Of a stretch of 64,000 bases of DNA, positions 39,984 to 62,952 are shown piece by piece. The stretch comes from Candidatus Colwellbacteria bacterium (GTDB lineage Bacteria > Patescibacteriota > Minisyncoccia > UBA6257 > Colwellbacteraceae): the NCBI GenBank assembly GCA_016176525.1, contig JACOWZ010000003.1:537925-601924 (forward strand), in the 5' to 3' direction. The first letter of the stretch is position 1. Each line of letters opens with the position of its first letter. The notes beneath the pieces were generated by a model. The model made no database searches and was not told where the DNA came from. It saw only the letters and a program-made list of their open reading frames with translations. Both the position numbers and the translations under genes were made by a program.

Positions 39984-40011
39984 CAGGTGTTATGATCAAT
40001 CATAACACCTG
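39984..40011. repeat. Palindromic repeat family P24, copy 1 (CAGGTGTTATGATCAATCATAACACCTG). Intergenic between cysS and rplU.
   Basis: Seen directly in the sequence. One central mismatch relative to the other three copies. Confidence 0.75.
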
Positions 40012-40080
40012 TGGTTAATAATAACTTGTAGAAAATAAAAAGCCTCGCGCCGATTCTGGTCGGAGGGCAAAATCTCCGCG

Positions 40081-40389
40081 TTAGGCGGAGATTTTTGTGA
40101 TTTCTACTTCTGTAAATGCTTGGCGGTGGCCTTTCTTTTTGCGATAGCGGGTTTTGGAGTGGTATTTAAAAACTATAACCTTTCTGGATCTCCCCTGCCG
40201 CAAAATTTTACCCTCCACTTTAACGCCATCCAAATACGGCATACCTAATTTAGGTTTGCCTTCGTCTGGCGCAACAAGTAAAACTTTATCAAACTTAATA
40301 GCGCCCTCACCGGCTAGTTTTTCAACTTTTATTTTATCCCCGGGAGAAACCAAATATTGCTTGCTCCCAGATTCAATTACTGCAAACAT
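40081..40389 (-). CDS. rplU: 50S ribosomal protein L21
   Basis: MFAVIESGSKQYLVSPGDKIKVEKL is the canonical bL21 N-terminus. 102 aa. Confidence 0.9.
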   Translation of the reverse strand: MFAVIESGSKQYLVSPGDKIKVEKLAGEGAIKFDKVLLVAPDEGKPKLGMPYLDGVKVEGKILRQGRSRKVIVFKYHSKTRYRKKKGHRQAFTEVEITKISA

Positions 40390-40399
40390 GGGCTAAATA

Positions 40400-41821
40400 C
40401 TACTCTATCACCTTTGCCTCGTCAAGAATGTCGGCCGAATCTGGCTTGTAAAACTTAAGTGGCACCGCGTTTGCCTCCCAAGCGGCTATTATTGGGTCAA
40501 TAAACCTCCACATAGCCCGCACTTCTTCTGTTGAAGTAAAAAGAGTTTGGTCTCCATAAATGCAATCTAAAAGCAGTTTTTCGTATTCACTGACGGTGCC
40601 GTTGCCGTTTTCGCGCAAAGCAAGCTTAATACTCTTATCTTCTAGCTCAAATTTATAGCCAATTTTCTTTATACCCATATGTATATTTATTTCTTCTTTG
40701 GGGGCAAGAGAAAATACAATGCTATTTCTATGCGGGGCTCTGCCTGCACACAAACATTCGCTAGGATGCTTAAAATTAACCGTTATGTCTTTAGTGTCTT
40801 TGCCGAGCCGCTTGCCCGACTCTAAATAAAACGGCACACCTTTAAACTTAGGAGATTTAATATAGGTTTTTATCTTAAAATATGTTTCTCTTGTAGAGTC
40901 CGGCCGCACGCCGAGGATTTGCTTATACCCTTCGTACTGCGCCCTAAAAGTATTTTTGCGAATATATTCGGCATCCGGCGCTACTATAGAGCTTAATATC
41001 TTGCGTCTATTGTTGCGTATTGCGCGCGCATCCATTTTTTGCGGATGTTCCATAGCAACAAGAGCAAGCATTTGCAGCAAATGATTTTGGCCAAAATCTC
41101 TTAAGGCGCCTGTGTCGTCATAAAACCCGCCTCGCTTTTCTACACCAACATCCTCCAATGCCCTTATGTAGACAGACTCGATATGGTTTCTGTTCCAATT
41201 TGACTCAAATATGCTGTTTGAGAACCTAAAGCTCAACACACTTTGAACCATTTCTTTCGCCAGATAGTGGTCTATTCTGTATATTTGCTCATCTGAAAAA
41301 AGCCGCGCAAGAAGCCGGTCTAATTTCCTGGATGTTTTAAGGTTTCTGCCAAATGGCTTTTCTACCAATATCTTTGTCTTTGCCGAGCCTTTGTGTGTTC
41401 TTAAATGCGTGTAAGAAGACGACAAATTTAAAAGAATATCTTCGTAGTGCAATGGGGGCACAGCCAAATAAAAAAGCTTGTTTGAATCTTCCTGAAATCC
41501 TTTATCTATTTCTTTGAGTACAGAAATTAAGGCTTTATAATCTTTTTTATTTTCAAAATTGCCTTTTTGGTAAGAAAAAAGCCTTATAAACGAAGGCCAT
41601 TTATCGCTTATCATAAGCGAGGAGCTGTGCTCTTCGTGCATCTTAGCTACGTGGTTTCTAAACTGTTCCAAATCCATATCGGTTCTTGAAAAACCGACTA
41701 CCCTAAACTTATCTGGCAAAAGCTCCCTGTCGTAAAGCTCAAAAAGGGCCGGGAGTATTTTTCTCGCTACCAAATTGCCGGTTGCGCCGAAAAGCACTAA
41801 AGTTGTTGGGATGTTTTTCAT
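40400..41821 (-). CDS. zwf: Glucose-6-phosphate 1-dehydrogenase
   Basis: LVLFGATGNLVARKILPAL (NADP-binding). RIDHYLAKE (G6PD signature RIDHYLGKE). 473 aa. Confidence 0.85.
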   Translation of the reverse strand: MKNIPTTLVLFGATGNLVARKILPALFELYDRELLPDKFRVVGFSRTDMDLEQFRNHVAKMHEEHSSSLMISDKWPSFIRLFSYQKGNFENKKDYKALISVLKEIDKGFQEDSNKLFYLAVPPLHYEDILLNLSSSYTHLRTHKGSAKTKILVEKPFGRNLKTSRKLDRLLARLFSDEQIYRIDHYLAKEMVQSVLSFRFSNSIFESNWNRNHIESVYIRALEDVGVEKRGGFYDDTGALRDFGQNHLLQMLALVAMEHPQKMDARAIRNNRRKILSSIVAPDAEYIRKNTFRAQYEGYKQILGVRPDSTRETYFKIKTYIKSPKFKGVPFYLESGKRLGKDTKDITVNFKHPSECLCAGRAPHRNSIVFSLAPKEEINIHMGIKKIGYKFELEDKSIKLALRENGNGTVSEYEKLLLDCIYGDQTLFTSTEEVRAMWRFIDPIIAAWEANAVPLKFYKPDSADILDEAKVIE

Positions 41822-41825
41822 CGCT

Positions 41826-42530
41826 TCATTGCGGAATATCAGTAAACACCTTTACATTTTTCATCTCGCGCATAATCCTAGCGGGCGCTTCGTTTAAGGA
41901 ACCTTCTGAAATTAGTTTATTAAGCGCATCTTTCTTGGTGGCCCCGCGCACATAGACTACCCCTCCATCTATTTTATCGCGCATAAAAGTAGCACTAACC
42001 GTCGCCCTTTGTGGATAAACATTTTTTTCGCCCGCATCGTAACCAACCACCCAACTTTTGGAGAGAAGGGCCTCCGAGTACGGCATTATACCCGCCGTAT
42101 GAGCATCTGGGCCAACACCTATAACTGCAATAATTTTGCCAGCCGGATGCAGTTTTACCCAAGACTTAAGCTCGGAATCAAGGCGCGTAGAAAAACCCTG
42201 CAGGGTTTCGCTCTCTTTCGGCACTGTACTTATAAACTTTGTGCCGCGCGCAATAGCTACCTTGCAAAACATAGTTTCTGAAAATTGTGCGAAGTTGTTG
42301 ACGTCCAGTTCCCTAGAAAATCTGTCGTCAAGCATTGTTATTGTAGTATTTTTACCAATATACTCTAGGCTAATGTCGTCTAAGAGTTCCATAGCTGAGC
42401 CGCCGGAAAGCATAAGCAAAACCGGGATATCTTTACTTTCTTTTAAAAATTGAGAAAGAGCGGCAGTCGCTCTTTCCCGTAATTTTTCTAGGTTATCAAT
42501 TCTTACAATCTCCGGTACGTGGCCAGGCAT
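41826..42530 (-). CDS. pgl: 6-phosphogluconolactonase / glucosamine-6-phosphate isomerase family protein
   Basis: NagB/DevB-fold signatures (LMLSGGSAMELL, IAVIGVGPDAHTAGI). It sits immediately downstream of zwf. Confidence 0.6.
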   Translation of the reverse strand: MPGHVPEIVRIDNLEKLRERATAALSQFLKESKDIPVLLMLSGGSAMELLDDISLEYIGKNTTITMLDDRFSRELDVNNFAQFSETMFCKVAIARGTKFISTVPKESETLQGFSTRLDSELKSWVKLHPAGKIIAVIGVGPDAHTAGIMPYSEALLSKSWVVGYDAGEKNVYPQRATVSATFMRDKIDGGVVYVRGATKKDALNKLISEGSLNEAPARIMREMKNVKVFTDIPQ

Positions 42531-42865
42531 TAGTTTAAATATAAAACCATAGACATTGAAATTGCAACAATTAATGCTAATAGAACCGTAAAGAATGCAA
42601 TTGCATAAGACAAAAATTTCTTCCTATAAAAAAACTCGTAAGTTAAAACAAGATTAATAAAAATAATCGCCGATGTTATCCACAGAACAGACTTTATTGC
42701 ATAGATGCTATGAGTTACAGGCAAGCCCTCGGAAGTGTAATTTATTATAAAGTCTCCGCCACGAGCTGTTAGGCCTCCAAGGCCTATAAAAAGAGCTATA
42801 AGCCAAAAGGCAATGCTTACAAGCGCCGCAGAAACAATAACCGGATCCTTTATGATAGGCATCAC
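42530..42865 (-). CDS. Small polytopic membrane protein (about 3 TM helices), hypothetical
   Basis: 111 aa and hydrophobic throughout. It overlaps the pgl start by 1 bp. Confidence 0.3.
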   Translation of the reverse strand: MMPIIKDPVIVSAALVSIAFWLIALFIGLGGLTARGGDFIINYTSEGLPVTHSIYAIKSVLWITSAIIFINLVLTYEFFYRKKFLSYAIAFFTVLLALIVAISMSMVLYLN

Positions 42866-42906
42866 AACTTGAATAATATCAAAGCTGGCAATAAAATAAA
42901 ACTTCT

Positions 42907-42979
42907 AGCTCCTATCGTCTAGAGGCCTAGGACGCTGCCCTCTCACGGCAGAAACTCGGGTTCAAATCCCGATGGGAGC
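42907..42979 (+). tRNA. tRNA-Glu (anticodon CUC)
   Basis: Folded by hand. Acceptor GCTCCTA/TGGGAGC with one G-U pair. D-arm TCGTCTAGAGGCCTAGGAC is typical of tRNA-Glu. Anticodon stem CTGCC/GGCAG with loop CTCTCAC. T-arm TCGGG-TTCAAAT-CCCGA. Confidence 0.8.
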
Positions 42980-42980
42980 G

Positions 42981-44549
42981 CTAATTATCTATTCTATCTG
43001 GCGGCACGTTGTAGTAGTTTAGTATAAATTGCGCGAGGTCGCGGAATGCGGGCACAACGCTTAATCCTGCAAGCGGCGCTCCAGCTGGCTTATCTAGTTT
43101 TATAAGGATAGTAAAACGCGGGTCGTAAGCCGGCGCAAAACCAACAAAGCTGTTTATAACATCATCTGAATATCCGCCTTTGCCTGGAATTTGCGCGGTG
43201 CCAGTTTTGCCTGCAACAGTGTAGCCAGAAATTTTGGCAACCTGCGCGCCGTCAACGGCTTTAACCATCATATCTGCGACTTTAAGGCTTGTTTGTAAAG
43301 ATATGACTCTCTCCACGCGCTCTGGTTTTAAGTCTGTATTAACATATGGCTTCATCATTACTCCTTTATTTGCTATTGCAGATACGGCAGTGATTAAAGA
43401 TATGGGCGTAACCGATATGCCCTGCCCGAAAGATGCGGTTGCAAAGTTTATGTCTCTAGTATTTGATTCTAAATTTCTTATACTGCCTGCAACCTCGCCC
43501 GGCAAGTCTATACCAGTTTCTTTGTTAAAACGGAATTTAGTGAGATATTCATAAAAAATTTCATGCCCCATAGTGCGCTCCGCAAACGCGGTGCCTGTGT
43601 TTAGAGATTTGCCTAGAACTTCTATCATAGTAACCCTGTCGTGGGCTTTATTGTCCCAGTTTTTTATCGTCCGTCCGTTTAATGTTAATTCACCCGTATC
43701 AACAAAGGCAGTCTCTGGTGTAATTTTTCCGGAATCAATGCCAGCAGCCATAGTTATAACCTTAAAAGCGGAGCCTGGCTCGTAAACCGACTGAACGGCA
43801 GGGTTTAAAAAGTTTTTTAATGGATACTCGCCATATTTGTTCGGGTTAAAGCCGGGTGCGCTTGCAAGCGCAAGAATCGCACCGGTCTTAGGGTCTTGCA
43901 CTATTACCGTGCCTCCCTCTGCGCTAAATTTTTGAATTAAACCGCCCAAAACAGCTTCTGCTTGGGCTTGTATGTCTTTATCTACAGTAAGCCTAATATT
44001 ATCGCCCGTTAGCGTTTCGTTATAGCGCGCTTCTACTCCATACGCTCCGCCGGGGTTCTCATTATCAATAGAAACAAAGCCAAGCAGGTGCGAAGCAGAG
44101 GTTCCAAATGGATAAAATCTATATGTTTCGTAAGCTACGCTTATTCCTTTTAATTCTTGTAAAGAAAGAGCTGATAATTGGTCCTCATTAACTCTTTTTA
44201 ATATAGGTTCAAATGGGTCGCTTGAATCCTTAAGTTTTTCTCCTAAGTCTTCTGCAGAAATCCCGGTAATTAAAGACAAAGCTGTAGCGGTTTCTTTTAC
44301 ATCATCAATTTTTCGATTATCAGAATAAATAAGCGGATAATCTCTGTTCATTGCCGCTGGCAGGTAATTGCCGTTTTTATCCGCAAGGTAAATTATGCCA
44401 CGGGGCGGCAAAATATTTTCAGGCGAGAGAGATGCGGCGCGCGCGCCGTAATAGTCCCCCTCTTTAATTTGAAGTTTATAAACATTAATACCCAAAGCCG
44501 CGAAGGCAACGCTAAAAACAGCAATCAGCGCTCCGATGCGAAAACCCAT
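42981..44549 (-). CDS. Penicillin-binding protein 2 / FtsI-type transpeptidase
   Basis: N-terminal TM helix and PBP dimerisation domain. Transpeptidase SxxK (SAFK), SxN (SLN) and KTG (KTGTA) motifs. 522 aa. Confidence 0.8.
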   Translation of the reverse strand: MGFRIGALIAVFSVAFAALGINVYKLQIKEGDYYGARAASLSPENILPPRGIIYLADKNGNYLPAAMNRDYPLIYSDNRKIDDVKETATALSLITGISAEDLGEKLKDSSDPFEPILKRVNEDQLSALSLQELKGISVAYETYRFYPFGTSASHLLGFVSIDNENPGGAYGVEARYNETLTGDNIRLTVDKDIQAQAEAVLGGLIQKFSAEGGTVIVQDPKTGAILALASAPGFNPNKYGEYPLKNFLNPAVQSVYEPGSAFKVITMAAGIDSGKITPETAFVDTGELTLNGRTIKNWDNKAHDRVTMIEVLGKSLNTGTAFAERTMGHEIFYEYLTKFRFNKETGIDLPGEVAGSIRNLESNTRDINFATASFGQGISVTPISLITAVSAIANKGVMMKPYVNTDLKPERVERVISLQTSLKVADMMVKAVDGAQVAKISGYTVAGKTGTAQIPGKGGYSDDVINSFVGFAPAYDPRFTILIKLDKPAGAPLAGLSVVPAFRDLAQFILNYYNVPPDRIDN

Positions 44550-44821
44550 GTTGGATTCTTATCTTTTATAAAACCGTTATCTATTGCAAGGCGTTCCATA
44601 TTTTCTTGGCTTAATATATATGATAGCGCATTTTGCGCTTCGGCAATATCTAATTTCGCTTCTTCTATCTCTTCGCCTTGCATAGCTATCTCATGCGCCA
44701 AACTTGTGGTTTCTGAATAAACCCAAATTTCGGCGACTAAAAATCCTACAAATATCAAAGCAAACAGGTATAGTATCCCTTTTAGGCTATTTTTATTTTT
44801 ATTTGGTTGTATAACTGTCAT
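44525..44821 (-). CDS. FtsL/DivIC-like small bitopic cell-division protein
   Basis: 98 aa, with one TM helix and a short coiled coil. Its position between rsmH and the PBP gene matches the mraZ-rsmH-ftsL-ftsI order. Confidence 0.45.
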   Translation of the reverse strand: MTVIQPNKNKNSLKGILYLFALIFVGFLVAEIWVYSETTSLAHEIAMQGEEIEEAKLDIAEAQNALSYILSQENMERLAIDNGFIKDKNPTWVFASER

Positions 44822-44829
44822 GTTTTAGT

Positions 44830-45711
44830 TTAGATAATTTTGATGGCGCGTAGCTTCGCAGAACGACTGCGTAGGTTTGCCGTAATTTCTTTTTCTTCTG
44901 GAATAACTGGTTTTTTGGTAAGTAGCTTAGCTTTGGCGTTCTCTTCCATCTCTATAAATGCATCCTTTACCAACCTGTCTTCTAGAGAATGGAACGTTAT
45001 AATCACAACTCTTCCGCCAACGGCCATAATTTTCTCCAAGTTCGTGAGAATCCGCTCTAAATTATCCAGTTCGCTGTTTACATATATGCGAAGCGCCTGG
45101 AAAACTCTTGCCACAACACCTGCCTCCCCTTTTTTAAAAAATTTAGGTATTGCCCCTTTAATCACTTCTTTCAGTTGGCCAGCAGTAAGTATTCTTTCTT
45201 TCTTACGCTCCCTTACAATTTCGGCTGCAATTTGTCGCGAGAATCTCTCTTCGCCTAAATTCCATAAGATATCGGCAAGCTCATCCTCGCGCAGGCTGTT
45301 TATAATTTCTGCAGCGGTTTTAATTCCTTCGGTTTTGGAATATCTCATATCAAGCGGTTCCGCGTCGTTTTTATAGCTAAAACCTCTGCCCGCCTCAAGC
45401 TGCCCCGAAGAAAACCCTAGATCTAGCAGTAACCCGTCTGCCTTACCTAACTTTTCTCTTTCCAAGATTTCTGGTAAATCTGCGTAATTTCCGTGGGCGA
45501 AAATAGTTTGTAGTTTATAGTTTTTAGTTTTTAGTTTTGTGATCATGCTTTCATCCCAATCAATTCCTAGAAACTTTCCACTACTCCCTATTTTTTCAAG
45601 AATCGCCTCTGCGTGGCCACCACCGTTAACAGTGGCGTCTATCATAAATTCTCCCGGCTTCGGCACAAGACATTTCAAAACCTCATTTAAAAGAACAGGA
45701 ATATGCATCAA
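44830..45711 (-). CDS. rsmH: 16S rRNA (cytosine1402-N4)-methyltransferase RsmH
   Basis: MMHIPVLLNEVL. SAM motif IDATVNGGGHA. DLGFSSGQL. 293 aa. Confidence 0.9.
   Translation of the reverse strand: MMHIPVLLNEVLKCLVPKPGEFMIDATVNGGGHAEAILEKIGSSGKFLGIDWDESMITKLKTKNYKLQTIFAHGNYADLPEILEREKLGKADGLLLDLGFSSGQLEAGRGFSYKNDAEPLDMRYSKTEGIKTAAEIINSLREDELADILWNLGEERFSRQIAAEIVRERKKERILTAGQLKEVIKGAIPKFFKKGEAGVVARVFQALRIYVNSELDNLERILTNLEKIMAVGGRVVIITFHSLEDRLVKDAFIEMEENAKAKLLTKKPVIPEEKEITANLRSRSAKLRAIKII
45504..45538. repeat. TAGTTT(T/G)TAGTT repeat family, copy B (TAGTTTGTAGTTTATAGTTTTTAGTTTTTAGTTTTG). It lies inside rsmH.
   Basis: Seen directly in the sequence. It encodes ITKLKTKNYKLQT. Confidence 0.6.
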
Positions 45712-46142
45712 ATTCCGAGTTCTCCAAGCTTCTCTGCTATTTCTTCCGAACTGCCTTCAGATTTTGACTTGTAGCGCTCCCATTCTTCTGCATCCCAAAT
45801 TTCCATTCTGTTGTAAACGCCGGTAATTTTTGTGTTTTTCTTTAGCCCTGAATATTTGCGCAAATAATCCGGAATTAAAATTCTCCCCTGCGAGTCCAGC
45901 TCCACATCTGCCGCGCCAGAGAGCATAAGCCGCACAAATGCGCGTGAATTTGCTTGCGACAAAGGCAAGGCAACAAGCTTTTGCGCAAGTGCCTCCCAAT
46001 CTTTGCTTGTAAAAACAAAGAGGCAATGGTCTATGCCTCTTGTAATAATTGCTCCGCCCACGAGCTTACCCCTAAATTTGGCGGGTATCGCTACTCGTCC
46101 TTTCTGGTCTATATTGTGTTGGTATTCGCCTAGAAAGCTCAT
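45708..46142 (-). CDS. mraZ: Transcriptional regulator MraZ
   Basis: MSFLGEYQHNIDQKGRVAIPAKFR is the canonical MraZ N-terminus. The start was moved from 46214 to the ATG at 46140-46142. Confidence 0.85.
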   Translation of the reverse strand: MSFLGEYQHNIDQKGRVAIPAKFRGKLVGGAIITRGIDHCLFVFTSKDWEALAQKLVALPLSQANSRAFVRLMLSGAADVELDSQGRILIPDYLRKYSGLKKNTKITGVYNRMEIWDAEEWERYKSKSEGSSEEIAEKLGELGI

Positions 46143-46347
46143 AGTTATTATAGTTATCCACAGAAAAGAGGGGTTTTCCACATACTTATCCACAATTCCC
46201 CACTTTTCATACATTATAACGTTAAATCACCCACAAAAGCAACATATAGACTATGTGTACAAGTAGAGCTCTCCAAACCCAGAGAGTTGACAATAGTGTT
46301 GCTTTATTATATAAAGCTGGTACCTCGCGAAGCGAGGCGGTGCAGAA

Positions 46348-54740: not shown

Positions 54741-55201
54741 AATGTTAGCTCTATTATTGAATCGCTCGTGGCATCATATGCCGAGATAACCGCGTTGTAG
54801 CCTGTAACACTATCATAATTTGCAGCCCACTTGCCCTGCCAAAAGCCATCTCTGCTTCTGCCGTTTAAGAGCTCTAGTTGATACGGATATTCCTGTGTTT
54901 CGGTTTTTATAGTCACTGTGACCGATTTTACGGGCCTAAAATTTGTAACATGCACGCTAAACATCTGCTCCTCGCCGCGCTTAATATCAAACGGGTCAAT
55001 AAAGCCGCTTACTATTCTTGGACCCCTCTCGCCGCTAGAAACAGTAAACACCTCGCCCCTTTCCGACGGGCTCGGCACAAATTTATCACTATTCACTACC
55101 TGCTCTTCGCTAAAAGGAAATAAAGTTATAAATACAAAAAATATGGCAATTGCAAGCGCAAAGAGAGCTAGATAATCTTGTTGACTGCCTTTTTTAGCCA
55201 T
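54737..55201 (-). CDS. Small secreted/membrane-anchored hypothetical protein of 154 aa
   Basis: N-terminal hydrophobic helix. It overlaps the giant protein start by 4 bp. Confidence 0.35.
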   Translation of the reverse strand: MAKKGSQQDYLALFALAIAIFFVFITLFPFSEEQVVNSDKFVPSPSERGEVFTVSSGERGPRIVSGFIDPFDIKRGEEQMFSVHVTNFRPVKSVTVTIKTETQEYPYQLELLNGRSRDGFWQGKWAANYDSVTGYNAVISAYDATSDSIIELTL

Positions 55202-55719: not shown

Positions 55720-56243
55720 GAATTTTGGCAGTAAAATTCGTATTCGCCATGGCCAGAAACCTGGAATTGTATAGTTTCTGTTGTGCCCTCAATTATTTCT
55801 TTATAAACTCCCAGGTCCGAGAAAAAGATATCGTAGTTGCCGTCAACCGCTGTAAAATTAATCTTTACAATATCACCGGTGTTTACAACGATTGTACTCG
55901 GCACATATTTTTGATTCTCCCCGCTTATATCAAACTCGCGGCGCTCAACTGTGCCGACTTGTGTAACTTTTGTTGGTACAGCAACATCTTGATTGGCTGA
56001 ACTCCCCACTTCGGGGGTAGCTACTGTCTCTGTTATTTCTTTTCTTGTACCGCCCTCTACGGTTTCTAATGCATCTGGGTCGTTTGGTCTGAATCTGTCT
56101 TCACCCAAAACTACCACGCCTTCATCGGTTAACAATTGCGGTTCTTGTGTAGGCGCAGGTTTAAGTTGTAAAAATAAAATAATAATAACAGCAACTGCGG
56201 CAACCAGTGCCATACCCCATATTAACTGTGCCTTAACACTCAT
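55677..56243 (-). CDS. Small secreted hypothetical protein of 188 aa, possibly with an Ig-like beta domain
   Basis: N-terminal TM/signal segment, a Pro/Thr/Glu-rich linker, then a beta-rich C-terminal domain. I recognise no catalytic motif. Confidence 0.35.
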   Translation of the reverse strand: MSVKAQLIWGMALVAAVAVIIILFLQLKPAPTQEPQLLTDEGVVVLGEDRFRPNDPDALETVEGGTRKEITETVATPEVGSSANQDVAVPTKVTQVGTVERREFDISGENQKYVPSTIVVNTGDIVKINFTAVDGNYDIFFSDLGVYKEIIEGTTETIQFQVSGHGEYEFYCQNSCRNEVTGKLIVNE

Positions 56244-56259
56244 AGTTTTATTATATCAC

Positions 56260-59200
56260 TTATAATTTTTCGTTTATGTTAATCGCGCCTTCTTTTATGT
56301 GCTCTCCAACTTCATCATCTGTTATTGCTCTATCCGCTACCAACCTGTAGCTTACCTCTCCTTCGCCGCTGCCGTGGATTGTAAGGGTATTTGCGATTGT
56401 GTCTTTGGTGTACCAAACGCGGCCATCAAACCCCGGGGTTAAAAACACCTGCAGACCCTCCATATCCGCACCAAAGTTTGTTATTTGGTAGAAAACCCAA
56501 AGATTACTGCCTCGCTTAAGGTTATCAAAATCAATAATATATTCATTCCCGGCTAGGTGCGCAGTGTCTACCACTTCTTCTTTTGTGGAACCCGCCATAA
56601 ATGGCGCATAGGTTGCGTAGTCTTCGCCGCCAATGTTGTACACCGGGTCGATCGTGGCAACTGTAATTTTGTTTACGCCAAGAATGTTGTTGTTATTCAT
56701 GTTTAAGTTGCCGTCAAAACGCCCTTCGCCTGCAACATGAAGTTTTACGGCAGGACTCGCCGTTCCGATGCCAACATTCCCGCTGCCTGGCATTAGCCGA
56801 ATATGATCACCCACTCCCCCGGCAGAATATAAAGAAAGATGGTTACCATTTTCCGCTTTTATACAAAATTCGTCTGTAACGTTTGTACAACTAGTCCATG
56901 CCCCGTCATACAACATAATACCCTGGCGTGTTGCTCCAGAATAAAACCCTAGCCACTCGTAAGTGGTGTCGTCTGCTCGCGCGCTATGGAATCCGATTTT
57001 ATCGTTTGTGCTGTTGATATCGGTGCCGATAGTCAGATTACCGGAGAATGTTCCCGATCCTCCATTCACTATATTTCTTGATGAATCTATAAATTGTGTG
57101 GTGCCGACTTTAAGGTCTCTCACCCTAAGGGTCTCGTATCCGGTTCCTGGGTTGTCTATAACCGCGAGATCCCCGCTGTTGTCGCCATCCACATAACCGA
57201 ACTGGGACGCAACCGCGCCGGAGTAGTGGAAAGATATTCTTGGGGCGTCGCCCGCGCCGGCGTTCCAATCCTGTATAACCTCTAGGGGCGCTTGGTTGTA
57301 AGCTAGTCCTGCGGAGCCCTGCAACAGACGCATCCTTCCGCTAACATCTAATTTGGACCCTGGACTCGTAGTCCCTATGCCGACGTTACCACTGGTGTTG
57401 GCAAAAAGTACGTTAGTGCGGTAGGCAAAGTTGCCTCCGCTTGCAACACTCAAGGTAGCTCCACCCGATCCCACCTCTAATGTGCCGTCAGTGCGCATTA
57501 TTCCAGCATTGTGGTAGATATTCTTAGAGCCATAACTTCGAATCCATGTAGTGTCTGACATATACCATCCACCACCATATGTTTCAAACAATAGCGGGTT
57601 ACTGCCTATAAGGCGTAGATTACCGCTTCCACGAATGTCTCCTATAACATCAAGGGGGTAACTTGGGCTCACCGTGCCTACACCTACACGCTGATTAGTT
57701 GCGTCAACGTATAAAACCGGTGAAGTACTCGCCGCCGCGTCAAAACGATAGCTGCCTTTTGTAGTGGTAGAACCAAACGTGCCCGGCGTAATTTGCCCAG
57801 CCGCAATTGCACTTGTGGTTTCTACATTGCCCGTAATGGTGCCGGATACATCCAAATCGCCGGTGATGTTTGTGTTACCGTTTACGTTTAGTTTGTATAC
57901 ACCGGGCGTTGTGGTGGCAATACCGACACTGCCGAATGTCGGAACAAGAAGAACGTTATTAGCTACACTAATCATATCTACATTAGCACCAGTAGCGCTA
58001 GCCGAAGTTCTAAGAACTATAGCATCATTTGTGTTATCTCTTACTTGTATGACTAATCTAGAGTCCTCTGTATTCAGATTATGCTCTCCATAGATTAATC
58101 CGTCGTCTGTAGACCCAATACCCGCTGTGCCGCTGTTTGTTCCCGCGTTGAATTGAATGGCATTTATTGGAATATTAACGTTTCCAATAACCTCAAGTTT
58201 TGTTGTTGGCGAGGCCGTCCCTATTCCAACGTTGCCAGATCTTTGAATCAGAAATCTAGGTGTCGTTAAATTATTATCATCAAATACTTGAAAGGCATTT
58301 GTACTATCATTGACTATAATATTCACAGTTGCATTTCCAGCTGCTCCGTTACCAACTTTAAGTTTGGGTTGAGCATCATCACTTATTCCTCTATCTGCAA
58401 CTTCTAAATTAGCACCTGGGCTAGCCGTACCTATGCCGATATTGCCGCTTCCATCTATTCTCATTCTTTCCGATGGAGCGTCGTTTGTTGAACCTGCGTT
58501 GAATATAATATCTCCCCCTGATTGATTAGCGTTGATATTCAATTCTCCACTCTGAACACCGAAACCGTAAACGGTGGTACCAGATTCATAAAGTCGAATA
58601 TGTGCAGTGGGATTTGTACCCCCAGTATCATAGAACGTTCCAAAGGACAATTTAGATCCCGGCGCCGTCGTCCCAATACCAACGTTGCCGTTCACGGAAA
58701 GCTTGGCCGTGTGGGACGTTACTCCTGCGTCATAACCAATTCCCACCTCGTTTTCGCCTTTCGCCTTAAAAGACACTATCTGGTTGCCGTCGCCATTGCC
58801 TACCCCGAAATTCTCGCCGCCAGTACTCGACTCGCCGACTAAGTAAAGTGTGTCATAGTCAGCAGTCGGCCCGGTGACGGTCCACCGGTAATCGATGGGG
58901 TTGGTTGTTCCGGTGGGCTCAATCCTTGACATACCCTTGACCGTCAACGGGTTACCCGGAGATGTCGTCCCGATGCCGACGTTGCCGCCTGCGGCTATTG
59001 TCAGCCTGTCCAATGAGTTTGTCCTAAATCTAAAATCCCTTGAACCAGAATTGTGCCCTATTGAAAGACCTGTATTGTCCATTACGAAGTCTGTTGTGTA
59101 TCCTGATGTTGACGTTGAACCATTGAATCTGAAAGCTGTATTTACACCATCTTGTATATGCAATTTCGTTCCAGGGCTCGTCGTCCCTATACCTACCCGC

Positions 59201-60639
59201 TCATTAGCTCCGTCAATAATAGCCCAGCCAGTTGTGAGCCCAGTCTTTCTAAATGTATAGTTTACAGAAGAGCTAGGATATGCAGAGCCAAAAGTGCCTC
59301 CACTAACTTGCGCTGCGACAAGTTCACTTGTGGTTTCTACATTGCCAGTAATTGTGCCAGATACGTCTAAATTACCAGTTATGTTTGTGTTGCCTGCGAC
59401 GTTCAGCTTATAAGTTCCCGGAGTAGTAATACCGATACCAACATTACCTGTTGAATCTATAGTAACTCTGTCAACTCCATTATCCTGGATATGCAAAGCA
59501 CTTATATCTGCATCAACCGATCCGATATATACATCATTAACACCATTTATCCCAAGGATTCTTGTTGATGCTCCTGCGGAATTCTTGGCTCTGTAATACT
59601 GTGCGTTTGCGTTCAGAGTTATGTCGCCGTTAACATCGAGCTTTGAACCCGGCGTGACTGTACCTATGCCGACGTTGCCGGAGTTGAGAATTGTCATGGC
59701 CGTTGTCGCATTGGTTCCCAAATAGATGTGATGGTTCTCGCGTTGCCACAGGTAGACATCCTGGTTTGAATCCACTTGGACATCAAATCCGTCACCGGAC
59801 GCAGACCCCGTGTTAGCGTTGCTTATCTTGATCTGAGAATCGGTTCCTGCACCATTCACATGCAATTGTCTTTGAGGACTTGTCGTCCCGATGCCGACGT
59901 TGCCGCTAACAACCAAACTATTTGCTGGCGCAGCAGTGCTTGCGGAATACCCTATTGCCGCGTTGCCATTGACTTGAAGTTTTGAACCTGCTGTTGCCGT
60001 GCCAATGCCAACCCCTCCGGTTCCGGATGGTTCAAGGATGATATCTCCTCCCCCCGGCTGTTCATTTTTAATATGGAAATCAAAAGTGTTAGCATTCGGA
60101 AAACCCAATTTTGCAAGGCTAGTCCAGCCCCCAACGGTTGGTGAAAAACCATACTCTATGTATGGTATGGCGGTGGCTGCGTCGGTTGCGGCACTTCGCA
60201 AGCGGAGGTGCGGGTTTATACCTTTAATCTCTAGTTTGGCTGCCGGTTCGCGAACGTTATCAACGAAATCATCGCCAATACCGACATTTGTGTTGTTATG
60301 AAAAAGGTTTGTCGTTGACACCCAAGCGGGCGCGCCCAGTGCATTCGTGCCTCCATAAATAGTTGCGCCTTGTATTACCGATGGTAACAGACCTTCAATC
60401 TCTCTCCATTCTGCTAAACCATCAGTGTTTGTGGCAGTAAGAACTGTGCCATCCGTCGGGTTGCCGCCGCTTATCTGAATACGCCTGCCGCCGGTAATTC
60501 CCACCGTAGTGTCTGAAACCGTTATAGCCGAACCTCCACCGCCAGGCGGTTGTTGAGTTGGTTGTGCAAAAACAACAGTAGCGCCAATTATGCTCACAAA
60601 GAGAAGCACAAGCGCCCGATTTAACACTCTTATAACCAT
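56260..60639 (-). CDS. Giant secreted repeat protein (1459 aa) with at least 12 repeats of a GNVGIGTTSPGxKL module. Probably a beta-helical fibre or adhesin.
   Basis: Signal-peptide-like N-terminus. Recurrent units such as SGNVGIGTTSPQRQLHVNG, GNVGIGTVTPGSKLDVNG, GNVGIGITTPGTYKLNVAGNTNITGNLDVSGTITGNVETTS (seen twice), GNIGIGTASPGANLEV and GNVGIGTASPAVKLHVAG. Confidence 0.6.
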   Translation of the reverse strand: MVIRVLNRALVLLFVSIIGATVVFAQPTQQPPGGGGSAITVSDTTVGITGGRRIQISGGNPTDGTVLTATNTDGLAEWREIEGLLPSVIQGATIYGGTNALGAPAWVSTTNLFHNNTNVGIGDDFVDNVREPAAKLEIKGINPHLRLRSAATDAATAIPYIEYGFSPTVGGWTSLAKLGFPNANTFDFHIKNEQPGGGDIILEPSGTGGVGIGTATAGSKLQVNGNAAIGYSASTAAPANSLVVSGNVGIGTTSPQRQLHVNGAGTDSQIKISNANTGSASGDGFDVQVDSNQDVYLWQRENHHIYLGTNATTAMTILNSGNVGIGTVTPGSKLDVNGDITLNANAQYYRAKNSAGASTRILGINGVNDVYIGSVDADISALHIQDNGVDRVTIDSTGNVGIGITTPGTYKLNVAGNTNITGNLDVSGTITGNVETTSELVAAQVSGGTFGSAYPSSSVNYTFRKTGLTTGWAIIDGANERVGIGTTSPGTKLHIQDGVNTAFRFNGSTSTSGYTTDFVMDNTGLSIGHNSGSRDFRFRTNSLDRLTIAAGGNVGIGTTSPGNPLTVKGMSRIEPTGTTNPIDYRWTVTGPTADYDTLYLVGESSTGGENFGVGNGDGNQIVSFKAKGENEVGIGYDAGVTSHTAKLSVNGNVGIGTTAPGSKLSFGTFYDTGGTNPTAHIRLYESGTTVYGFGVQSGELNINANQSGGDIIFNAGSTNDAPSERMRIDGSGNIGIGTASPGANLEVADRGISDDAQPKLKVGNGAAGNATVNIIVNDSTNAFQVFDDNNLTTPRFLIQRSGNVGIGTASPTTKLEVIGNVNIPINAIQFNAGTNSGTAGIGSTDDGLIYGEHNLNTEDSRLVIQVRDNTNDAIVLRTSASATGANVDMISVANNVLLVPTFGSVGIATTTPGVYKLNVNGNTNITGDLDVSGTITGNVETTSAIAAGQITPGTFGSTTTKGSYRFDAAASTSPVLYVDATNQRVGVGTVSPSYPLDVIGDIRGSGNLRLIGSNPLLFETYGGGWYMSDTTWIRSYGSKNIYHNAGIMRTDGTLEVGSGGATLSVASGGNFAYRTNVLFANTSGNVGIGTTSPGSKLDVSGRMRLLQGSAGLAYNQAPLEVIQDWNAGAGDAPRISFHYSGAVASQFGYVDGDNSGDLAVIDNPGTGYETLRVRDLKVGTTQFIDSSRNIVNGGSGTFSGNLTIGTDINSTNDKIGFHSARADDTTYEWLGFYSGATRQGIMLYDGAWTSCTNVTDEFCIKAENGNHLSLYSAGGVGDHIRLMPGSGNVGIGTASPAVKLHVAGEGRFDGNLNMNNNNILGVNKITVATIDPVYNIGGEDYATYAPFMAGSTKEEVVDTAHLAGNEYIIDFDNLKRGSNLWVFYQITNFGADMEGLQVFLTPGFDGRVWYTKDTIANTLTIHGSGEGEVSYRLVADRAITDDEVGEHIKEGAININEKL

Positions 60640-60657
60640 TCTCGTAATTATAACATC

Positions 60658-61539
60658 TTATATAGCGGCGCAGGTGTTGAAATCTTTAACACTTTGGTTA
60701 TATGTTGCAATGTCTTCTTTAACCTCTTCAAGTAGGGCATTATATTGCTCGGCAAGCGCGTTGTATTCATCTATCTTTTGGTTATACTCCGGCCCGCTCT
60801 TGGGCCTGGTTTGTTCCAAATCAACTTTCCGCTCTTCTAGCTCCGCCGCCCAAATTTCTAGTTGCGCCTCATTTGATTCAATCTCCGCGGCCAAATACTC
60901 TGCTACAGGCGGGCAATAAGAGAGAGGCAAGCCAAATTCTTGCGCGGCAAGCCAAACACTTTGGCCATTAAACTCACCTTTTTCTGCATACACGCCAATT
61001 TCCGTAAACCTCTGGTTAAGAATATTTGCTCTGTGGCCTGGGCTATTCATCCAACCATCTACAACCATTTCGTCCCCCGCCCAGTTGCCCAGCGCCAAGT
61101 TTTCGCCTATCAAAATAAATTGATAGTTTGCGCCCGCTGCCAGATCCGCAGGACCCGTGCCATTGGGCGAAACGTGTTCAAAATATTCAAGCGCGAACAT
61201 ATCTTTAACCTTAGCGATGGCGGCATTTTTAAGTTTTAAGTTTTCAGAGAGGGGCGGTAAACCCTGTTCCGCACGATGTTTGTTTGTCCAACTTATTATG
61301 CCCGCGCTTGTAAGCTCTTTGCCGGGCAGAGATGTGCGTGATTTTAAGGGGCCGGGTGTGAGCACACGGTCTGCGCTGGGCAAAACCTCAACGCGAGAAA
61401 CAATGTCACTCAAAATTTCGTCTACTGCAGGCAGCCTTGACCATAAGCTCGCGATATCAGAACGGAACACCGTTAACACACCTACTGTAACTACCAATGC
61501 AAGAAATACTAAAATTATTTTTATTATGTGATTAAACAT
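60658..61539 (-). CDS. CAP (SCP/PR-1-like) domain protein with an N-terminal TM helix and a C-terminal coiled coil
   Basis: GWMNSPGHRANILNQRFTEIGV is a canonical CAP motif (HYTQVVW / GHxxN-type region). The N-terminal helix is IILVFLALVVTVGVLTVF. The C-terminus is E/L/A-rich. Confidence 0.65.
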   Translation of the reverse strand: MFNHIIKIILVFLALVVTVGVLTVFRSDIASLWSRLPAVDEILSDIVSRVEVLPSADRVLTPGPLKSRTSLPGKELTSAGIISWTNKHRAEQGLPPLSENLKLKNAAIAKVKDMFALEYFEHVSPNGTGPADLAAGANYQFILIGENLALGNWAGDEMVVDGWMNSPGHRANILNQRFTEIGVYAEKGEFNGQSVWLAAQEFGLPLSYCPPVAEYLAAEIESNEAQLEIWAAELEERKVDLEQTRPKSGPEYNQKIDEYNALAEQYNALLEEVKEDIATYNQSVKDFNTCAAI

Positions 61540-61550
61540 GGCTTATCCAC

Positions 61551-61574
61551 GGTGTTATGATTAATCATAACACC
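61551..61574. repeat. Palindromic repeat family P24, copy 2 (GGTGTTATGATTAATCATAACACC). Intergenic between the CAP-domain gene and the PduO-like gene.
   Basis: Seen directly in the sequence. Confidence 0.75.
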
Positions 61575-61581
61575 GCATTCT

Positions 61582-62169
61582 CTATTTATATTTGGGGTGT
61601 TTTTCTCTTTTATGTGACTTTTTGGCTTCCATGCGCCCGAGGGCAAAAAATAGACTGGAAAGGCGGTTTAAATATGCCATTATCGCTGAGTCTGGCAACA
61701 AGGTGTTATGATTAATCATAACGCCTTGTTTTTTACTTTTATAATTCTTATAAAAAACAAGTGCACTGCGTTCCGCGCGGCGCGAAACTGCCCTTACATA
61801 ATCCAAAAGTGCAGACGTTTCGTTTACGCCGGATATGATAAATCCGCGTTCGGGTTTTAACTTGCGCTCACATTCGTCAATAATACGCTCAATTTCCGTT
61901 ATTTTAGTTTTTGGGAACGCCGGCGACTTGTATTTGCCGCCTAGCATAATATTTGCAACATTTGCTTGGATTATAAACAAATTTTCTTGCACGGTGTGTA
62001 AAATCTTTTTTGTCACCGCAGACAGCTTGCGCGCTTTTGCAACGCCTATAAGCGAGTTTAGCTCGTCTAGGTCGCCGAGCGCCGCAATTTCCACACAAGT
62101 TTTGTCTATCTTCTTCTTACCAATAACGCTTTTTCCACTATCACCCTTGCCGGTATAAAAAAGTCCCAT
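61582..62169 (-). CDS. PduO-type ATP:cob(I)alamin adenosyltransferase family protein. It carries an in-frame copy of the palindromic repeat.
   Basis: N-terminal YTGKGDSGKS...GDLDELNSLIG (compare YTRTGDKGETSL...LDELNS). C-terminal YLNRLSSLFFALGR (compare YLNRLSDLLFVLAR). The repeat encodes GVMINHNT at 61702-61725. Confidence 0.7.
   Translation of the reverse strand: MGLFYTGKGDSGKSVIGKKKIDKTCVEIAALGDLDELNSLIGVAKARKLSAVTKKILHTVQENLFIIQANVANIMLGGKYKSPAFPKTKITEIERIIDECERKLKPERGFIISGVNETSALLDYVRAVSRRAERSALVFYKNYKSKKQGVMINHNTLLPDSAIMAYLNRLSSLFFALGRMEAKKSHKREKHPKYK
61697..61730. repeat. Palindromic repeat family P24, copy 3, with extended arms AACAAGG...CCTTGTT. It lies in frame inside the PduO-like CDS.
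   Basis: Seen directly in the sequence. It encodes KQGVMINHNTL. Confidence 0.75.
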
Positions 62170-62174
62170 AGTAA

Positions 62175-62205
62175 TAGTTTATAGTTTTTAGTTGGTAGTT
62201 AGTAG
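62175..62205. repeat. TAGTTT(T/G)TAGTT repeat family, copy C (TAGTTTATAGTTTTTAGTTGGTAGTTAGTAG). Intergenic between the PduO-like gene and rsmE.
   Basis: Seen directly in the sequence. Confidence 0.65.
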
Positions 62206-62238
62206 TGAACACAAAATCTACACACTACCTACTATACA

Positions 62239-62952
62239 CTAATCACTAATTGCAACGTATGTTGCAATTATTGCTGCTGTTTCGGCGCGCAAAGTTAGTT
62301 TGCCTAAACTCACAATCTTAAACCCTGCTTCTTTCGCGGCTGTGAGCTCCGATTCGTCCCAACCGCCTTCTGGGCCAACCCAGAGATTAAGTTTTAAGTT
62401 TTTAGTTTTTAGTTTTAAGTCATTTATGGGCTCGCCAGATATATCAAAAAGGGTGTTATGATTAATCATAACACCACCTGCGTTTTTTACAGCCTCATTA
62501 AAAGAGATCACTTCGTGAATCTTAGGGACAACCGCGCGGCCAGACTGCTCGGCCGCCTCTTTAGCAATGATTCGCAAGCGCTCCAGATTAAGGTTTAGTT
62601 TAACCGTGCGCTTTGCAACAATCGGAACAATTTCTTTTATGCCGACTTCTGTTGTTTTTTGCACAACTAACTCGAAATTATCTCTTTTTAAAACCGAGCA
62701 ATAAAGAGTGATATCCGCCTCCGACTCTGATTTATTTTGGGAAATTTCGAGAACTTTAAACATAATAAAACCGTTGCCAAAATCCTGAATTTCAGCTACG
62801 GCCTCGCAAGATGCGCCGTCTCCCAAAACCAGCTTATCACCTATGCGAAGGCGCAATACGTTTCGAATCTGTTTTACAACATCCTCGTCGGATACTCTTA
62901 ATAATTTTCCAGACTCGAGAGTTTCGTTAATAATAAATCTATGGAGTTTCAT
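62239..62952 (-). CDS. rsmE: 16S rRNA (uracil1498-N3)-methyltransferase RsmE. It carries both repeat families in frame just before the conserved GPEGG motif.
   Basis: MKLHRFIINE...(PUA-like N-terminus)...WVGPEGGWDESE (RsmE GPEGGF/W motif). The segment GVMINHNTLFDISGEPINDLKLKTKNLKLNL is encoded by the repeats at 62388-62475. Confidence 0.75.
   Translation of the reverse strand: MKLHRFIINETLESGKLLRVSDEDVVKQIRNVLRLRIGDKLVLGDGASCEAVAEIQDFGNGFIMFKVLEISQNKSESEADITLYCSVLKRDNFELVVQKTTEVGIKEIVPIVAKRTVKLNLNLERLRIIAKEAAEQSGRAVVPKIHEVISFNEAVKNAGGVMINHNTLFDISGEPINDLKLKTKNLKLNLWVGPEGGWDESELTAAKEAGFKIVSLGKLTLRAETAAIIATYVAISD
62388..62421. repeat. TAGTTT(T/G)TAGTT repeat family, copy D (TAAGTTTTAAGTTTTTAGTTTTTAGTTTTAAGTC). 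It lies inside rsmE, 30 bp from P24 copy 4.
   Basis: Seen directly in the sequence. It encodes DLKLKTKNLKLN. Confidence 0.6.
62452..62475. repeat. Palindromic repeat family P24, copy 4. It lies in frame inside rsmE.
   Basis: Seen directly in the sequence. It encodes GVMINHNT. Confidence 0.75.

What the first reader, a model, noticed from the sequence alone, without database searches (positions are those of the whole stretch)
39984..62475. 24-bp palindromic repeat (GGTGTTATGATTAATCATAACACC) present four times, twice as in-frame inserts in conserved enzymes
Copies lie at 39984-40011 (intergenic), 61551-61574 (intergenic), 61697-61730 (inside the PduO-type adenosyltransferase gene) and 62452-62475 (inside rsmE, just before the invariant GPEGG motif). 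Because it is a palindrome, the element reads the same on both strands. Only one of its three frames is open (GVMINHNT; the other two contain TGA and TAA). Both intragenic copies sit in that frame. This is the signature of a small mobile palindromic element (MITE, REP or BIME-like, or a homing site) that tolerates or exploits insertion into coding DNA. A self-complementary sequence in mRNA could also form a hairpin that affects translation.
Basis: seen in the sequence. Interest (0 to 1): 0.72.

Follow-up and report, generated by a model that had tools for sequence, protein, structure and literature searches.

The report
Regulator-binding palindrome copied into enzyme genes
The four 24-bp palindromes are real, and they match the likely DNA-binding site of a small Trp-repressor-like protein found across the ultra-small "CPR" bacteria; in this genome the site has multiplied, and two copies sit in frame inside housekeeping enzyme genes.

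Summary
Four copies of GGTGTTATGATTAATCATAACACC (at most 1 mismatch) lie at the stated coordinates, against 0 expected by chance. Copy 4 recurs in two independent assemblies.

- The PduO copy is a clean 33-nt in-frame insertion relative to a 79%-identical orthologous gene.
- The copy after the PduO stop lies in a spacer that this relative lacks.
- The RsmE copy is not an 8-aa insert. It overwrites a variable loop (net +2 aa), and its seventh codon supplies a near-invariant Asn.

The sequence is not a genome-specific MITE. The core GTGTTATGAT-NN-ATCATAACAC occurs, almost always between genes, in 5 CPR genomes and 48 metagenome contigs with GC 0.24-0.58.

In 11 of 11 loci examined, 6 of them chosen without reference to the motif, a ~140-aa TrpR-family HTH gene is flanked by this palindrome or a close variant. 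Sites lie 15-160 bp upstream, and usually another within about 30 bp after the stop codon. The site variant tracks a Leu/Pro difference at the HTH.

Best reading: the palindromes are cognate operator-type sites of a CPR TrpR-like protein. They also form stable hairpins and have spread locally here by an unknown, transposase-independent route. No such gene lies in the window, and binding is untested.

The parts
39984..40011 (.). Copy 1: 28-bp palindrome CAGGTGTTATGATCAATCATAACACCTG. It is intergenic, 85 bp upstream of the cysS(-) start codon and downstream of rplU(-) and its terminator-like hairpin.
   Evidence: RNA fold -17.4/-17.7 kcal/mol, z about -5.5
61550..61575 (.). Copy 2: 26-bp perfect palindrome. 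It lies 7 bp after the PduO stop and 11 bp before the ATG of the CAP-domain gene. It sits in a 42-nt spacer that is absent in the closest relative, where the PduO stop and the next start overlap (ATGA).
   Evidence: fold -15.6/-17.3 kcal/mol
61697..61730 (.). Copy 3: 34-bp near-perfect palindrome inside PduO, in the loop before the YLNRLS helix. It corresponds to a clean 33-nt (11-codon) in-frame insertion relative to orthologue L056.
   Evidence: fold -21.1 (+) / -18.3 (-) kcal/mol; terminator-like on the + strand, antisense to the gene
62452..62475 (.). Copy 4: exact 24-bp palindrome inside rsmE, encoding residues 160-167 (GVMINHNT). It overwrites a variable loop with a net gain of 2 aa. Its 7th codon (AAC) is the near-invariant Asn166. 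On the sense strand it is followed by CTTTTTGAT, which is terminator-like.
   Evidence: reproduced in L063/L064
62239..62952 (-). rsmE (16S rRNA m3U1498 methyltransferase), host of copy 4
61582..62169 (-). PduO-type ATP:cob(I)alamin adenosyltransferase, host of copy 3
60658..61539 (-). CAP/SCP-domain secreted-protein gene directly downstream of copy 2. Its first codons, ATG TTT AAT CAC, resemble the palindrome's ATG ATT AAT CAT.
   Evidence: the resemblance was seen by eye and not tested
38512..39900 (-). cysS, the gene downstream of copy 1

Best explanation
The 24-bp palindrome is most likely the cognate double-stranded DNA site of a small TrpR-family helix-turn-helix protein that is widespread in CPR/Patescibacteria. 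The protein is about 135-150 aa. It has a basic C-terminal tail with a GRP (AT-hook-like) motif and a predicted terminal beta-hairpin.

Shown: the 20-bp core TGTTATGAT-NN-ATCATAACA has the architecture of TrpR/HisR operators. In other CPR genomes the palindrome or close variants bracket the regulator's own gene. A few further copies sit upstream of other genes, for example clpB.

Inferred: a dimer binds the two half-sites. It autoregulates its own gene and represses or road-blocks neighbouring transcription.

Because the site is a perfect palindrome, it also folds into a -13 to -21 kcal/mol hairpin in RNA or single-stranded DNA. A subset of copies at gene 3' ends have grown longer, copy-specific stems with A/T runs and look like bidirectional terminators.

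In this Colwellbacteria genome the site has multiplied: four copies in 72 kb, three of them within 925 bp of one operon (rsmE-PduO-CAP). At least two copies arose as new DNA: 33 nt in frame in a PduO surface loop, and a spacer at the PduO/CAP junction. One copy overwrote a variable RsmE loop.

Inferred and untested: hairpin-driven template switching, or templated break repair using a nearby copy, rather than transposition. Only copies in the single open frame (GVMINHNT), in tolerant loops, survive inside genes.
For: (1) The motif is real and non-random.

(2) The core is conserved far beyond this genome. It is found in 7 GTDB genomes, 5 of them CPR, and in 48 metagenome contigs with GC 0.24-0.58. 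About 50 unique instances are nearly all intergenic. Conservation of sequence, not just of pairing, across such varied base composition argues for protein recognition.

(3) Five motif-selected loci carry a PF01371 Trp_repressor-family gene beside the motif. In L011 the motif lies on both sides of the gene.

(4) Prospective test: six homologues were picked only for contig length (L057, L059, L060, L062, L067, L068). All six have family palindromes 15-160 bp upstream of the gene. Five of the six also have one within about 30 bp after the stop. Within the +/-10 kb around these six genes, only one family palindrome lay away from the gene: the L067 site 162 bp upstream of clpB.

(5) Protein-site covariation. 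Six proteins with '..SLQTI..' pair with TGTTATG..CATAACA. Five proteins with '..SPQTIS..' pair with (A/G)CTATG..CATAG(T/C).

(6) Published TrpR/HisR operators are 20-bp palindromes, TGTAcTnGTnnACnAgTACA, and are often autoregulatory (PMC9413887). The window core shares 12 of 20 positions with trpO, including the TGT..ACA ends and the TTAA centre.

(7) The AF2 model of the protein has mean pLDDT 74.6. Its best PDB neighbours are TrpR and 'putative TrpR' structures, although these matches are not significant (E 0.2 or worse).

(8) Insertion evidence. A clean 33-nt gap appears against L056, which also lacks the copy-2 spacer. RsmE is net +2 aa against 31 orthologues and against L056.

(9) The four copies remain at least 23/24 identical to one another, while the host genes are only 75-79% identical to the nearest relative. 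This argues for recent spread or purifying selection on the site.
Against: - No TrpR-like gene lies in the window (tblastn) or in the 8.5 kb beyond its end. I could not scan the rest of the 644,793-bp contig.
- Binding has not been demonstrated for any member of this CPR subfamily.
- About a third of classifiable sites in other genomes lie between convergent genes or right at stop codons. A promoter operator has no obvious role there.
- No coherent regulon emerged. The only recurrence is clpB upstream in two lineages and clpP, about 460 bp away, in one lineage.
- The Leu/Pro-to-site covariation may reflect only two clades, that is, a single evolutionary event.
- Operator sites are not otherwise known to arrive by insertion of new DNA, so the spreading mechanism is conjecture.
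Confidence: 0.55

Rival explanations
1. A REP/BIME- or MITE-like mobile palindromic element. An enzyme encoded elsewhere moves it, it inserts anywhere, and it survives in genes only in its one open frame. The TrpR-like gene flanked by copies would then be the analogue of a RAYT gene flanked by REPs.
For: - Insertion relative to the closest orthologue.
- Three copies within 925 bp and four in 72 kb, against about one exact copy per genome elsewhere.
- Presence between convergent genes and at gene 3' ends.
- Copy-specific extended stems.
- A cognate-looking gene bracketed by copies.
- Different palindrome types lying side by side in L002, L010 and L005, in a BIME-like mosaic.
Against: - No target-site duplication at the cleanly defined PduO insertion.
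- The bracketed gene is a 135-150-aa HTH protein with no recognisable catalytic domain. It is not a Y1/HUH or DDE transposase.
- The element is only 24-34 bp long.
- Copy number is low.
- The core is conserved across lineages of GC 0.24-0.58 rather than being species-specific.
- The RsmE copy is a replacement, not an insertion.
- No hits in viral contigs.
Confidence: 0.2
2. A purely structural RNA hairpin, acting as an intrinsic terminator or mRNA stabiliser within the rsmE-PduO-CAP operon and at other gene ends, with no dedicated binding protein.
For: - All copies fold at -13.5 to -21 kcal/mol with z of -3.5 to -5.9 on both strands.
- Four sites score as terminator-like.
- 9 of 50 instances have at least 4 extra complementary flanking bp, against about 4% in the null. 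These sit mostly at gene 3' ends and have A/T runs.
Against: - A hairpin needs pairing, not sequence. Yet 22 core positions are invariant across very different genomes, while only the flanks vary.
- The core variant tracks the neighbouring HTH protein variant.
- Many copies lie upstream of genes or between divergent genes.
- No Rfam family matches.
Confidence: 0.1
3. A centromere-like or chromosome-organising site, analogous to parS/ParB, matS/MatP or NBS/Noc. The TrpR-like protein would nucleate on clusters of palindromes irrespective of promoters, which is why intragenic positions are tolerated.
For: - Arrays of 3-5 sites within about 600-900 bp around the protein's own gene: five in L034, four in L060.
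- A three-site cluster in the window with no promoter logic.
- Sites in convergent intergenic regions and in coding DNA.
- An AT-hook-like basic tail.
Against: - No partner ATPase or other conserved neighbour.
- About one exact site per genome in the GTDB genomes.
- The TrpR family is known for ligand-controlled repressors (PMC9413887).
Confidence: 0.08
4. Chance or convergent native coding sequence, or an assembly artefact.
For: None beyond one point: the RsmE copy occupies the place of native residues, and its NT codons match the conserved N-x position.
Against: - 0 of 100 shuffles give any match.
- None of 62 orthologues has the peptide.
- Independent assemblies reproduce copy 4.
Confidence: 0.01

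Closest known systems
TrpR-family operators (E. coli trp operator; HisR/YerC boxes of Firmicutes)
   Same: - A 20-bp two-fold symmetric site with a TGT...ACA frame and a free central dinucleotide.
- 12 of 20 positions are identical to trpO.
- The site sits just upstream of a PF01371 gene, which implies autoregulation.
- Lineage-specific variants of one palindromic scheme (PMC9413887).
   Different: - The CPR proteins are longer, with a conserved N-terminal NYxSRKEWExACW segment and a basic GRP-containing tail.
- A second site almost always sits within about 30 bp after the stop codon.
- Sites occur between convergent genes and, here, inside coding DNA.
- There is no link to trp or his genes.
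- New sites arise by insertion of DNA.
REP/BIME elements and their RAYT (TnpA-REP) genes in proteobacteria
   Same: - Short hairpin-forming palindromes, mostly extragenic and often at 3' ends.
- The gene for the presumed cognate protein is bracketed by copies.
- Different palindrome types are found side by side.
   Different: - The bracketed gene is an HTH protein, not a Y1/HUH transposase.
- The palindromes are perfect rather than imperfect and lack a GTAG head.
- There are units of copies per genome rather than hundreds.
- The core is conserved across distant lineages rather than being species-specific.
Rickettsia palindromic elements (RPE; Ogata et al. 2000, recalled from memory and not checked here)
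   Same: A palindromic repeat inserted in frame into conserved protein-coding genes at surface positions, adding a peptide without destroying the protein.
   Different: RPEs are about 100-150 bp (30-50 aa), specific to Rickettsia, numerous, and have no known binding protein. Here the unit is 24-34 bp (8-11 aa) and doubles as a conserved protein-binding-type site.
Neisseria DUS / Haemophilus USS inverted pairs
   Same: A conserved short sequence that, as an inverted pair, forms terminator-like hairpins after genes and is also tolerated in coding DNA in particular frames.
   Different: Uptake sequences occur roughly once per kb. No evidence links this motif to competence, and its density elsewhere is about one exact copy per genome.

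Membership tests
TrpR-family operator site | About 20-bp inverted repeat with two-fold symmetry and a free central dinucleotide | tested here: met
   The core is TGTTATGAT-NN-ATCATAACA. The centre varies (GC, AT, AC, TA and others) across 50 instances. 12 of 20 positions match trpO. Family description from PMC9413887.
TrpR-family operator site | Located next to or upstream of a PF01371 regulator gene (autoregulation) | tested here: met
   Met in related genomes: 11 of 11 loci, 6 of them chosen blind. Not met within this window: no such gene is present, and the rest of the genome could not be searched.
TrpR-family operator site | Site sequence covaries with the protein's recognition region | tested here: met
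   SLQTI pairs with GTTATG (6 proteins). SPQTIS pairs with (A/G)CTATG (5 proteins). This may be a single phylogenetic split.
TrpR-family operator site | Direct, specific binding by the protein, with an effect on transcription | not testable with these tools
   Needs EMSA, DAP-seq or ChIP-seq, plus expression data.
MITE | Terminal inverted repeats plus target-site duplication, 50-500 bp, derived from an autonomous transposon | tested here: not met
   No direct repeat flanks the cleanly delimited 33-nt PduO insert. The unit is 24-34 bp. No transposase lies in the window or next to the motif in 55 loci.
REP/RAYT system | Y1 (HUH) transposase gene flanked by the repeats | tested here: not met
   The flanked gene is a TrpR-like HTH (PF01371) with no HUH or Y1 domain.
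REP/RAYT system | High copy number of extragenic palindromes in one genome | tested here: inconclusive
   Four copies in 72.5 kb here. One exact copy per GTDB genome elsewhere. The whole MAG was not available.
Rickettsia palindromic element-like in-frame insert | Palindromic repeat inserted in frame in a conserved gene, absent from orthologues | tested here: met
   PduO has a 33-nt in-frame insertion, absent in 31 orthologues and in L056 DNA. RsmE meets this only partly: it is a replacement with net +2 aa.
Rickettsia palindromic element-like in-frame insert | Sequence or size similarity to RPE families | tested here: not met
   The unit is 24-34 bp against about 100-150 bp for RPEs. No Rfam or other family match. 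RPE properties are recalled from memory.
Homing-endonuclease target or intron/intein site | Associated endonuclease, intron or intein | tested here: not met
   No such ORF lies at or near any copy. The insert is translated as part of the host protein.

The most novel reading that the evidence does not exclude
A CPR-wide pair, consisting of a catalytically 'naked' TrpR-like/AT-hook protein and its perfect palindromic site, may constitute a self-propagating system. The sites would be copied to new places by hairpin-driven template switching or by protein-assisted repair, without a transposase, and would even be written in frame into essential genes. This would be a new way for binding sites to move. 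It might also explain the many other small hairpin-encoded peptide inserts seen in CPR proteins.
Probability: 0.15. Interest if true: 0.8.

Novelty: new variant of a known kind. Interest (0 to 1): 0.55.

Why it matters
CPR/Patescibacteria have very few recognisable transcription factors, and almost nothing is known about their cis-regulatory code.

This finding links a conserved 20-24-bp palindrome to a specific, widespread TrpR-family protein. The gene is bracketed by its own sites, and further copies lie upstream of clpB. That gives a directly testable protein-site pair for these uncultivated bacteria.

It also shows that a binding-site-sized palindrome can be gained as new DNA. It can be kept inside conserved enzymes, in the PduO and RsmE loops. 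This is a small-scale analogue of the Rickettsia RPE phenomenon, and a caution for annotating 'lineage-specific loop insertions'.

In the one operon here, three such hairpins could act as road-blocks, attenuators or mRNA-processing points. Metatranscriptomes can check this.

Tried and rejected
- **Rfam:** nothing matches the motif at gathering threshold on the window, or at E up to 1 on 8 motif loci.
- **Universal neighbour gene:** all-vs-all BLAST of ORFs within 1.5 kb of the motif in 55 loci gave no universal neighbour. The TrpR-like cluster (5 loci) was the only informative one. A 70-77-aa 'ORF' cluster is translated repeat DNA.
- **Regulon search:** scanning 51 genes downstream of the motif against Pfam gave no coherent set. 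Later checks found clpB in two lineages.
- **TrpR-like gene in the window:** tblastn found none.
- **Extending the window:** the right side yielded 8.5 kb with no copy and no TrpR-like gene. The left side failed because the chosen ORF's product is not on record.
- **Viral contigs:** no match.
- **Intragenic copies in other genomes:** long ORFs spanning the motif in L005, L036, L009 and others were checked. The motif lies upstream of the real domain or start, or the ORF has no Pfam family, so none is convincingly intragenic.
- **Other known sites, compared by eye from memory:** Fur/Zur boxes, NrdR boxes, LexA boxes, parS, dif, attC, DnaA boxes and IS circle junctions. None matches in spacing or sequence, and none was formally tested.
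- **Fold search of the AF2 model:** it gave only weak TrpR matches (E 0.2) and no catalytic fold.
- **Literature:** full-text searches found no paper linking CPR, TrpR-like proteins and palindromic repeats.


Full report
**1. The observation**

GGTGTTATGATTAATCATAACACC occurs four times with at most 1 mismatch, at 39986-40009, 61551-61574, 61702-61725 and 62452-62475. None of 100 dinucleotide-preserving shuffles produced a match. There are no isolated half-sites and no further copies even at 6 mismatches.

The window comes from a Candidatus Colwellbacteria MAG, on a contig of 644,793 bp. Its GC content is 0.42.

Gene context of the four copies:
- Copy 1 lies 85 bp upstream of cysS(-).
- Copy 2 lies 7 bp after the PduO stop and 11 bp before the start of a CAP-domain gene.
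- Copy 3 is inside the PduO-type adenosyltransferase gene (PF01923).
- Copy 4 is inside rsmE (PF04452).

Both intragenic copies read GVMINHNT. The other two frames carry TGA and TAA, so the shared frame is a necessity, not a coincidence.

Two Logan assemblies from different runs reproduce copy 4 exactly. The insert-bearing PduO protein is on record from both NCBI and Logan. An assembly artefact is therefore excluded.

**2. Are the intragenic copies insertions?**

*PduO: yes.* Solved homologues and 31 CPR orthologues lack the segment. The closest orthologue is P0122 (77% aa). Its DNA, L056, is 79% identical at the nucleotide level and aligns with one clean 33-nt gap covering CAAGGCGTTATGATTAATCATAACACCTTGTTG. 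Removing those 11 codons restores exactly the orthologue's length. The inserted unit therefore includes the copy-specific outer arms (ACAAG/CTTGT). No direct repeat flanks it.

*Copy 2: also extra DNA.* In L056 the PduO stop overlaps the next gene's start (ATGA). The window instead has a 42-nt spacer holding copy 2, and a different N-terminus for the downstream protein.

*RsmE: not an 8-aa insertion.* Against 31 orthologues, and against the RsmE C-terminal fragment that happens to be on L056, the window protein is only 2 aa longer: AVKNAGGVMINHNTLFD versus AVRNTKENALN--LFFD. The palindrome replaces about six variable loop residues. Its AAC codon supplies Asn166, which is at least 90% conserved. 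This event is a replacement or overwrite.

**3. The same palindrome exists far beyond this genome**

Exact scans for GTGTTATGAT-NN-ATCATAACAC gave these hits:
- 7 GTDB species genomes: four Saccharibacteria, one Liptonbacteria, two non-CPR.
- 48 metagenome contigs with GC 0.24-0.58.
- No viral contigs.

The consensus is aGGTGTTATGAT-NN-ATCATAACACCt, with a free central dinucleotide. Each GTDB genome had a single exact copy.

The roughly 50 unique instances are essentially all intergenic. Long ORFs that span the motif turned out to begin downstream of it or to have no family. Sites occur between divergent, co-directional and convergent genes.

In 9 of 50 instances the complementarity extends at least 4 bp into flanks of unrelated sequence, up to 11 bp. 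The null expectation is about 4%. These instances sit mostly just after genes and often have an A-run on one side and a T-run on the other. A subset has therefore become terminator-like hairpins.

No Rfam family matches.

**4. A cognate protein**

Clustering ORFs near the motif found one informative neighbour: a 135-155-aa PF01371 (Trp_repressor) protein in five loci. In L011 it has the motif on both sides.

I then took six homologues chosen only for long contigs: P0249, P0277, P0289, P0351, P0313 and P0353.
- All six genes have family palindromes 15-160 bp upstream.
- Five of the six also have one within about 30 bp after the stop codon.
- Within the +/-10 kb around these six genes, only one family palindrome lay away from the gene: the L067 site 162 bp upstream of clpB.
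- Re-inspection of the motif-selected loci showed the same bracket arrangement.

The site variant tracks the protein:
- Six proteins with ...SLQTI... at the helix-turn-helix pair with TGTTATG(A/C)T..A(T/G)CATAACA.
- Five proteins with ...SPQTIS... pair with (A/G)CTATG......CATAG(T/C).

TrpR and HisR (YerC) are known to bind 20-bp palindromes of the form TGTAcTnGTnnACnAgTACA and often to autoregulate (PMC9413887). The window's 20-bp core shares 12 of 20 positions with trpO, including the TGT/ACA ends and the TTAA centre.

An AF2 model of the protein (mean pLDDT 74.6) is helical, with a C-terminal beta-hairpin. Its nearest solved structures are TrpR and putative TrpR proteins, but the matches are not significant, with E-values of 0.2 or worse. 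The conserved tail carries an RGRP-type, AT-hook-like motif.

clpB has a site upstream in two lineages that use different site variants, L050 and L067. clpP lies about 460 bp from the motif in the low-GC lineage. Otherwise no regulon emerged.

**5. Synthesis**

*Shown:*
- The palindromes are real.
- At least two are gained DNA.
- The core is a conserved CPR motif.
- The motif brackets TrpR-family genes, and the site variant covaries with the protein variant.

*Inferred:*
- The motif is this protein's binding site.
- A cognate gene exists elsewhere in this genome. The four copies remain at least 23/24 identical while the host genes have diverged to 75-79% from the nearest relative. That implies recent spread or selection on the site.

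*Unusual in this window:*
- Density: four copies in 72.5 kb, three within 925 bp of the rsmE-PduO-CAP operon, against about one exact copy per genome elsewhere.
- Two coding copies.

All copies fold stably on both strands, at -13.5 to -21.1 kcal/mol with z of -3.5 to -5.9. On the rsmE sense strand, copy 4 is followed by CUUUUUGAU. RNA-level effects such as attenuation, processing or stabilisation are therefore possible in addition to DNA binding.

The lack of target-site duplications and of any transposase, the copy-specific self-complementary arms, the replacement-type event in rsmE and the tight local clustering together point to one kind of route. That route is hairpin-promoted template switching, or templated repair from a nearby copy, rather than transposition. 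This step is conjecture.

**6. Comparison and novelty**

The site works like a TrpR-family operator. It meets the testable membership criteria in related genomes. In its distribution and in the way it brackets its presumed cognate gene, it resembles REP/RAYT, but it fails the defining transposase criterion. In its coding insertions it resembles Rickettsia RPEs at one fifth of the size.

I found no paper describing this protein-site pair or its coding insertions in CPR. The library is incomplete, so this is not proof of absence.

Verdict: a new variant of known kinds. It is of moderate interest in itself, and of higher interest if sites really propagate without a transposase.

Noticed in passing
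window 14710-14745 and 15133-15168, flanking ORF 14796..15134(+): Two palindromes share the core CTTATCACA|TGTGATAAG. They bracket a 112-aa Cys-rich ORF (several CxxC pairs, no Pfam hit): one lies 51 bp upstream and the other overlaps the ORF's last codons. This is the same site-gene-site layout seen around the TrpR-like genes.
   Followed up: partly
window 13007-13052 and 13258-13297: A 46-bp palindrome with perfect 22-nt arms lies at the 5' end of a 784-aa N6/N4 DNA methyltransferase ORF (10691..13045, -). A 40-bp perfect palindrome lies about 200 bp further on, next to a rhodanese/UPF0176 gene. These may be operators or terminators of a restriction-modification module.
   Followed up: partly
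L065:301-873 and L066:301-885 (PduO orthologues P0207, P0230); also P0125, P0146, P0148 in alignment A3: Other CPR PduO orthologues carry different short inserts in the same two loops, for example ARRSLGVGGKP and SAGRRIRTGKK. Their DNA folds into GC-rich hairpins, for example TCCGCC-GGAC-GGCGGA. In-frame hairpin-repeat inserts may therefore be common in CPR proteins.
   Followed up: partly
L026:3550-4850: A 1.5-kb non-coding stretch upstream of mraZ in a low-GC CPR contig is packed with several families of small conserved hairpin repeats. Examples are GGATTGCTTCGTC...CTCGCAATGAC, CCTCCGAAGGAGGATCC and CTGCCTACCGGCAGGCAGG, plus two copies of the motif 433 bp apart. Translated, they give the recurrent spurious peptides seen in metagenomic 'hypothetical proteins'.
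   Followed up: no
L002:305-351, L010:173-225, L005:846-892, L053: The window-type palindrome lies directly beside a second palindrome type, CTATGAC-AT-GTCATAG. This second type is the variant found upstream of another TrpR-like paralogue (L068). Some genomes may therefore have two paralogous protein-site pairs with adjacent sites.
   Followed up: partly
window 61528-61539 (minus strand; first four codons of the CAP-domain gene): The gene starts with ATG TTT AAT CAC (MFNH), which resembles the palindrome's ATG ATT AAT CAT (MINH). In the relative L056 the protein starts MRIIKII. The start codon may derive from an older, decayed copy of the palindrome.
   Followed up: no
window 62380-62420 and alignment A2 (P0004): RsmE has a low-complexity AAAACT-type stretch (KLKTKNLKLN) between the palindrome and GPEGG. 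The closest RsmE orthologue, P0004, carries a further 15-aa insert there. Both Logan contigs break at this stretch (window 62391), not at the palindrome.
   Followed up: no
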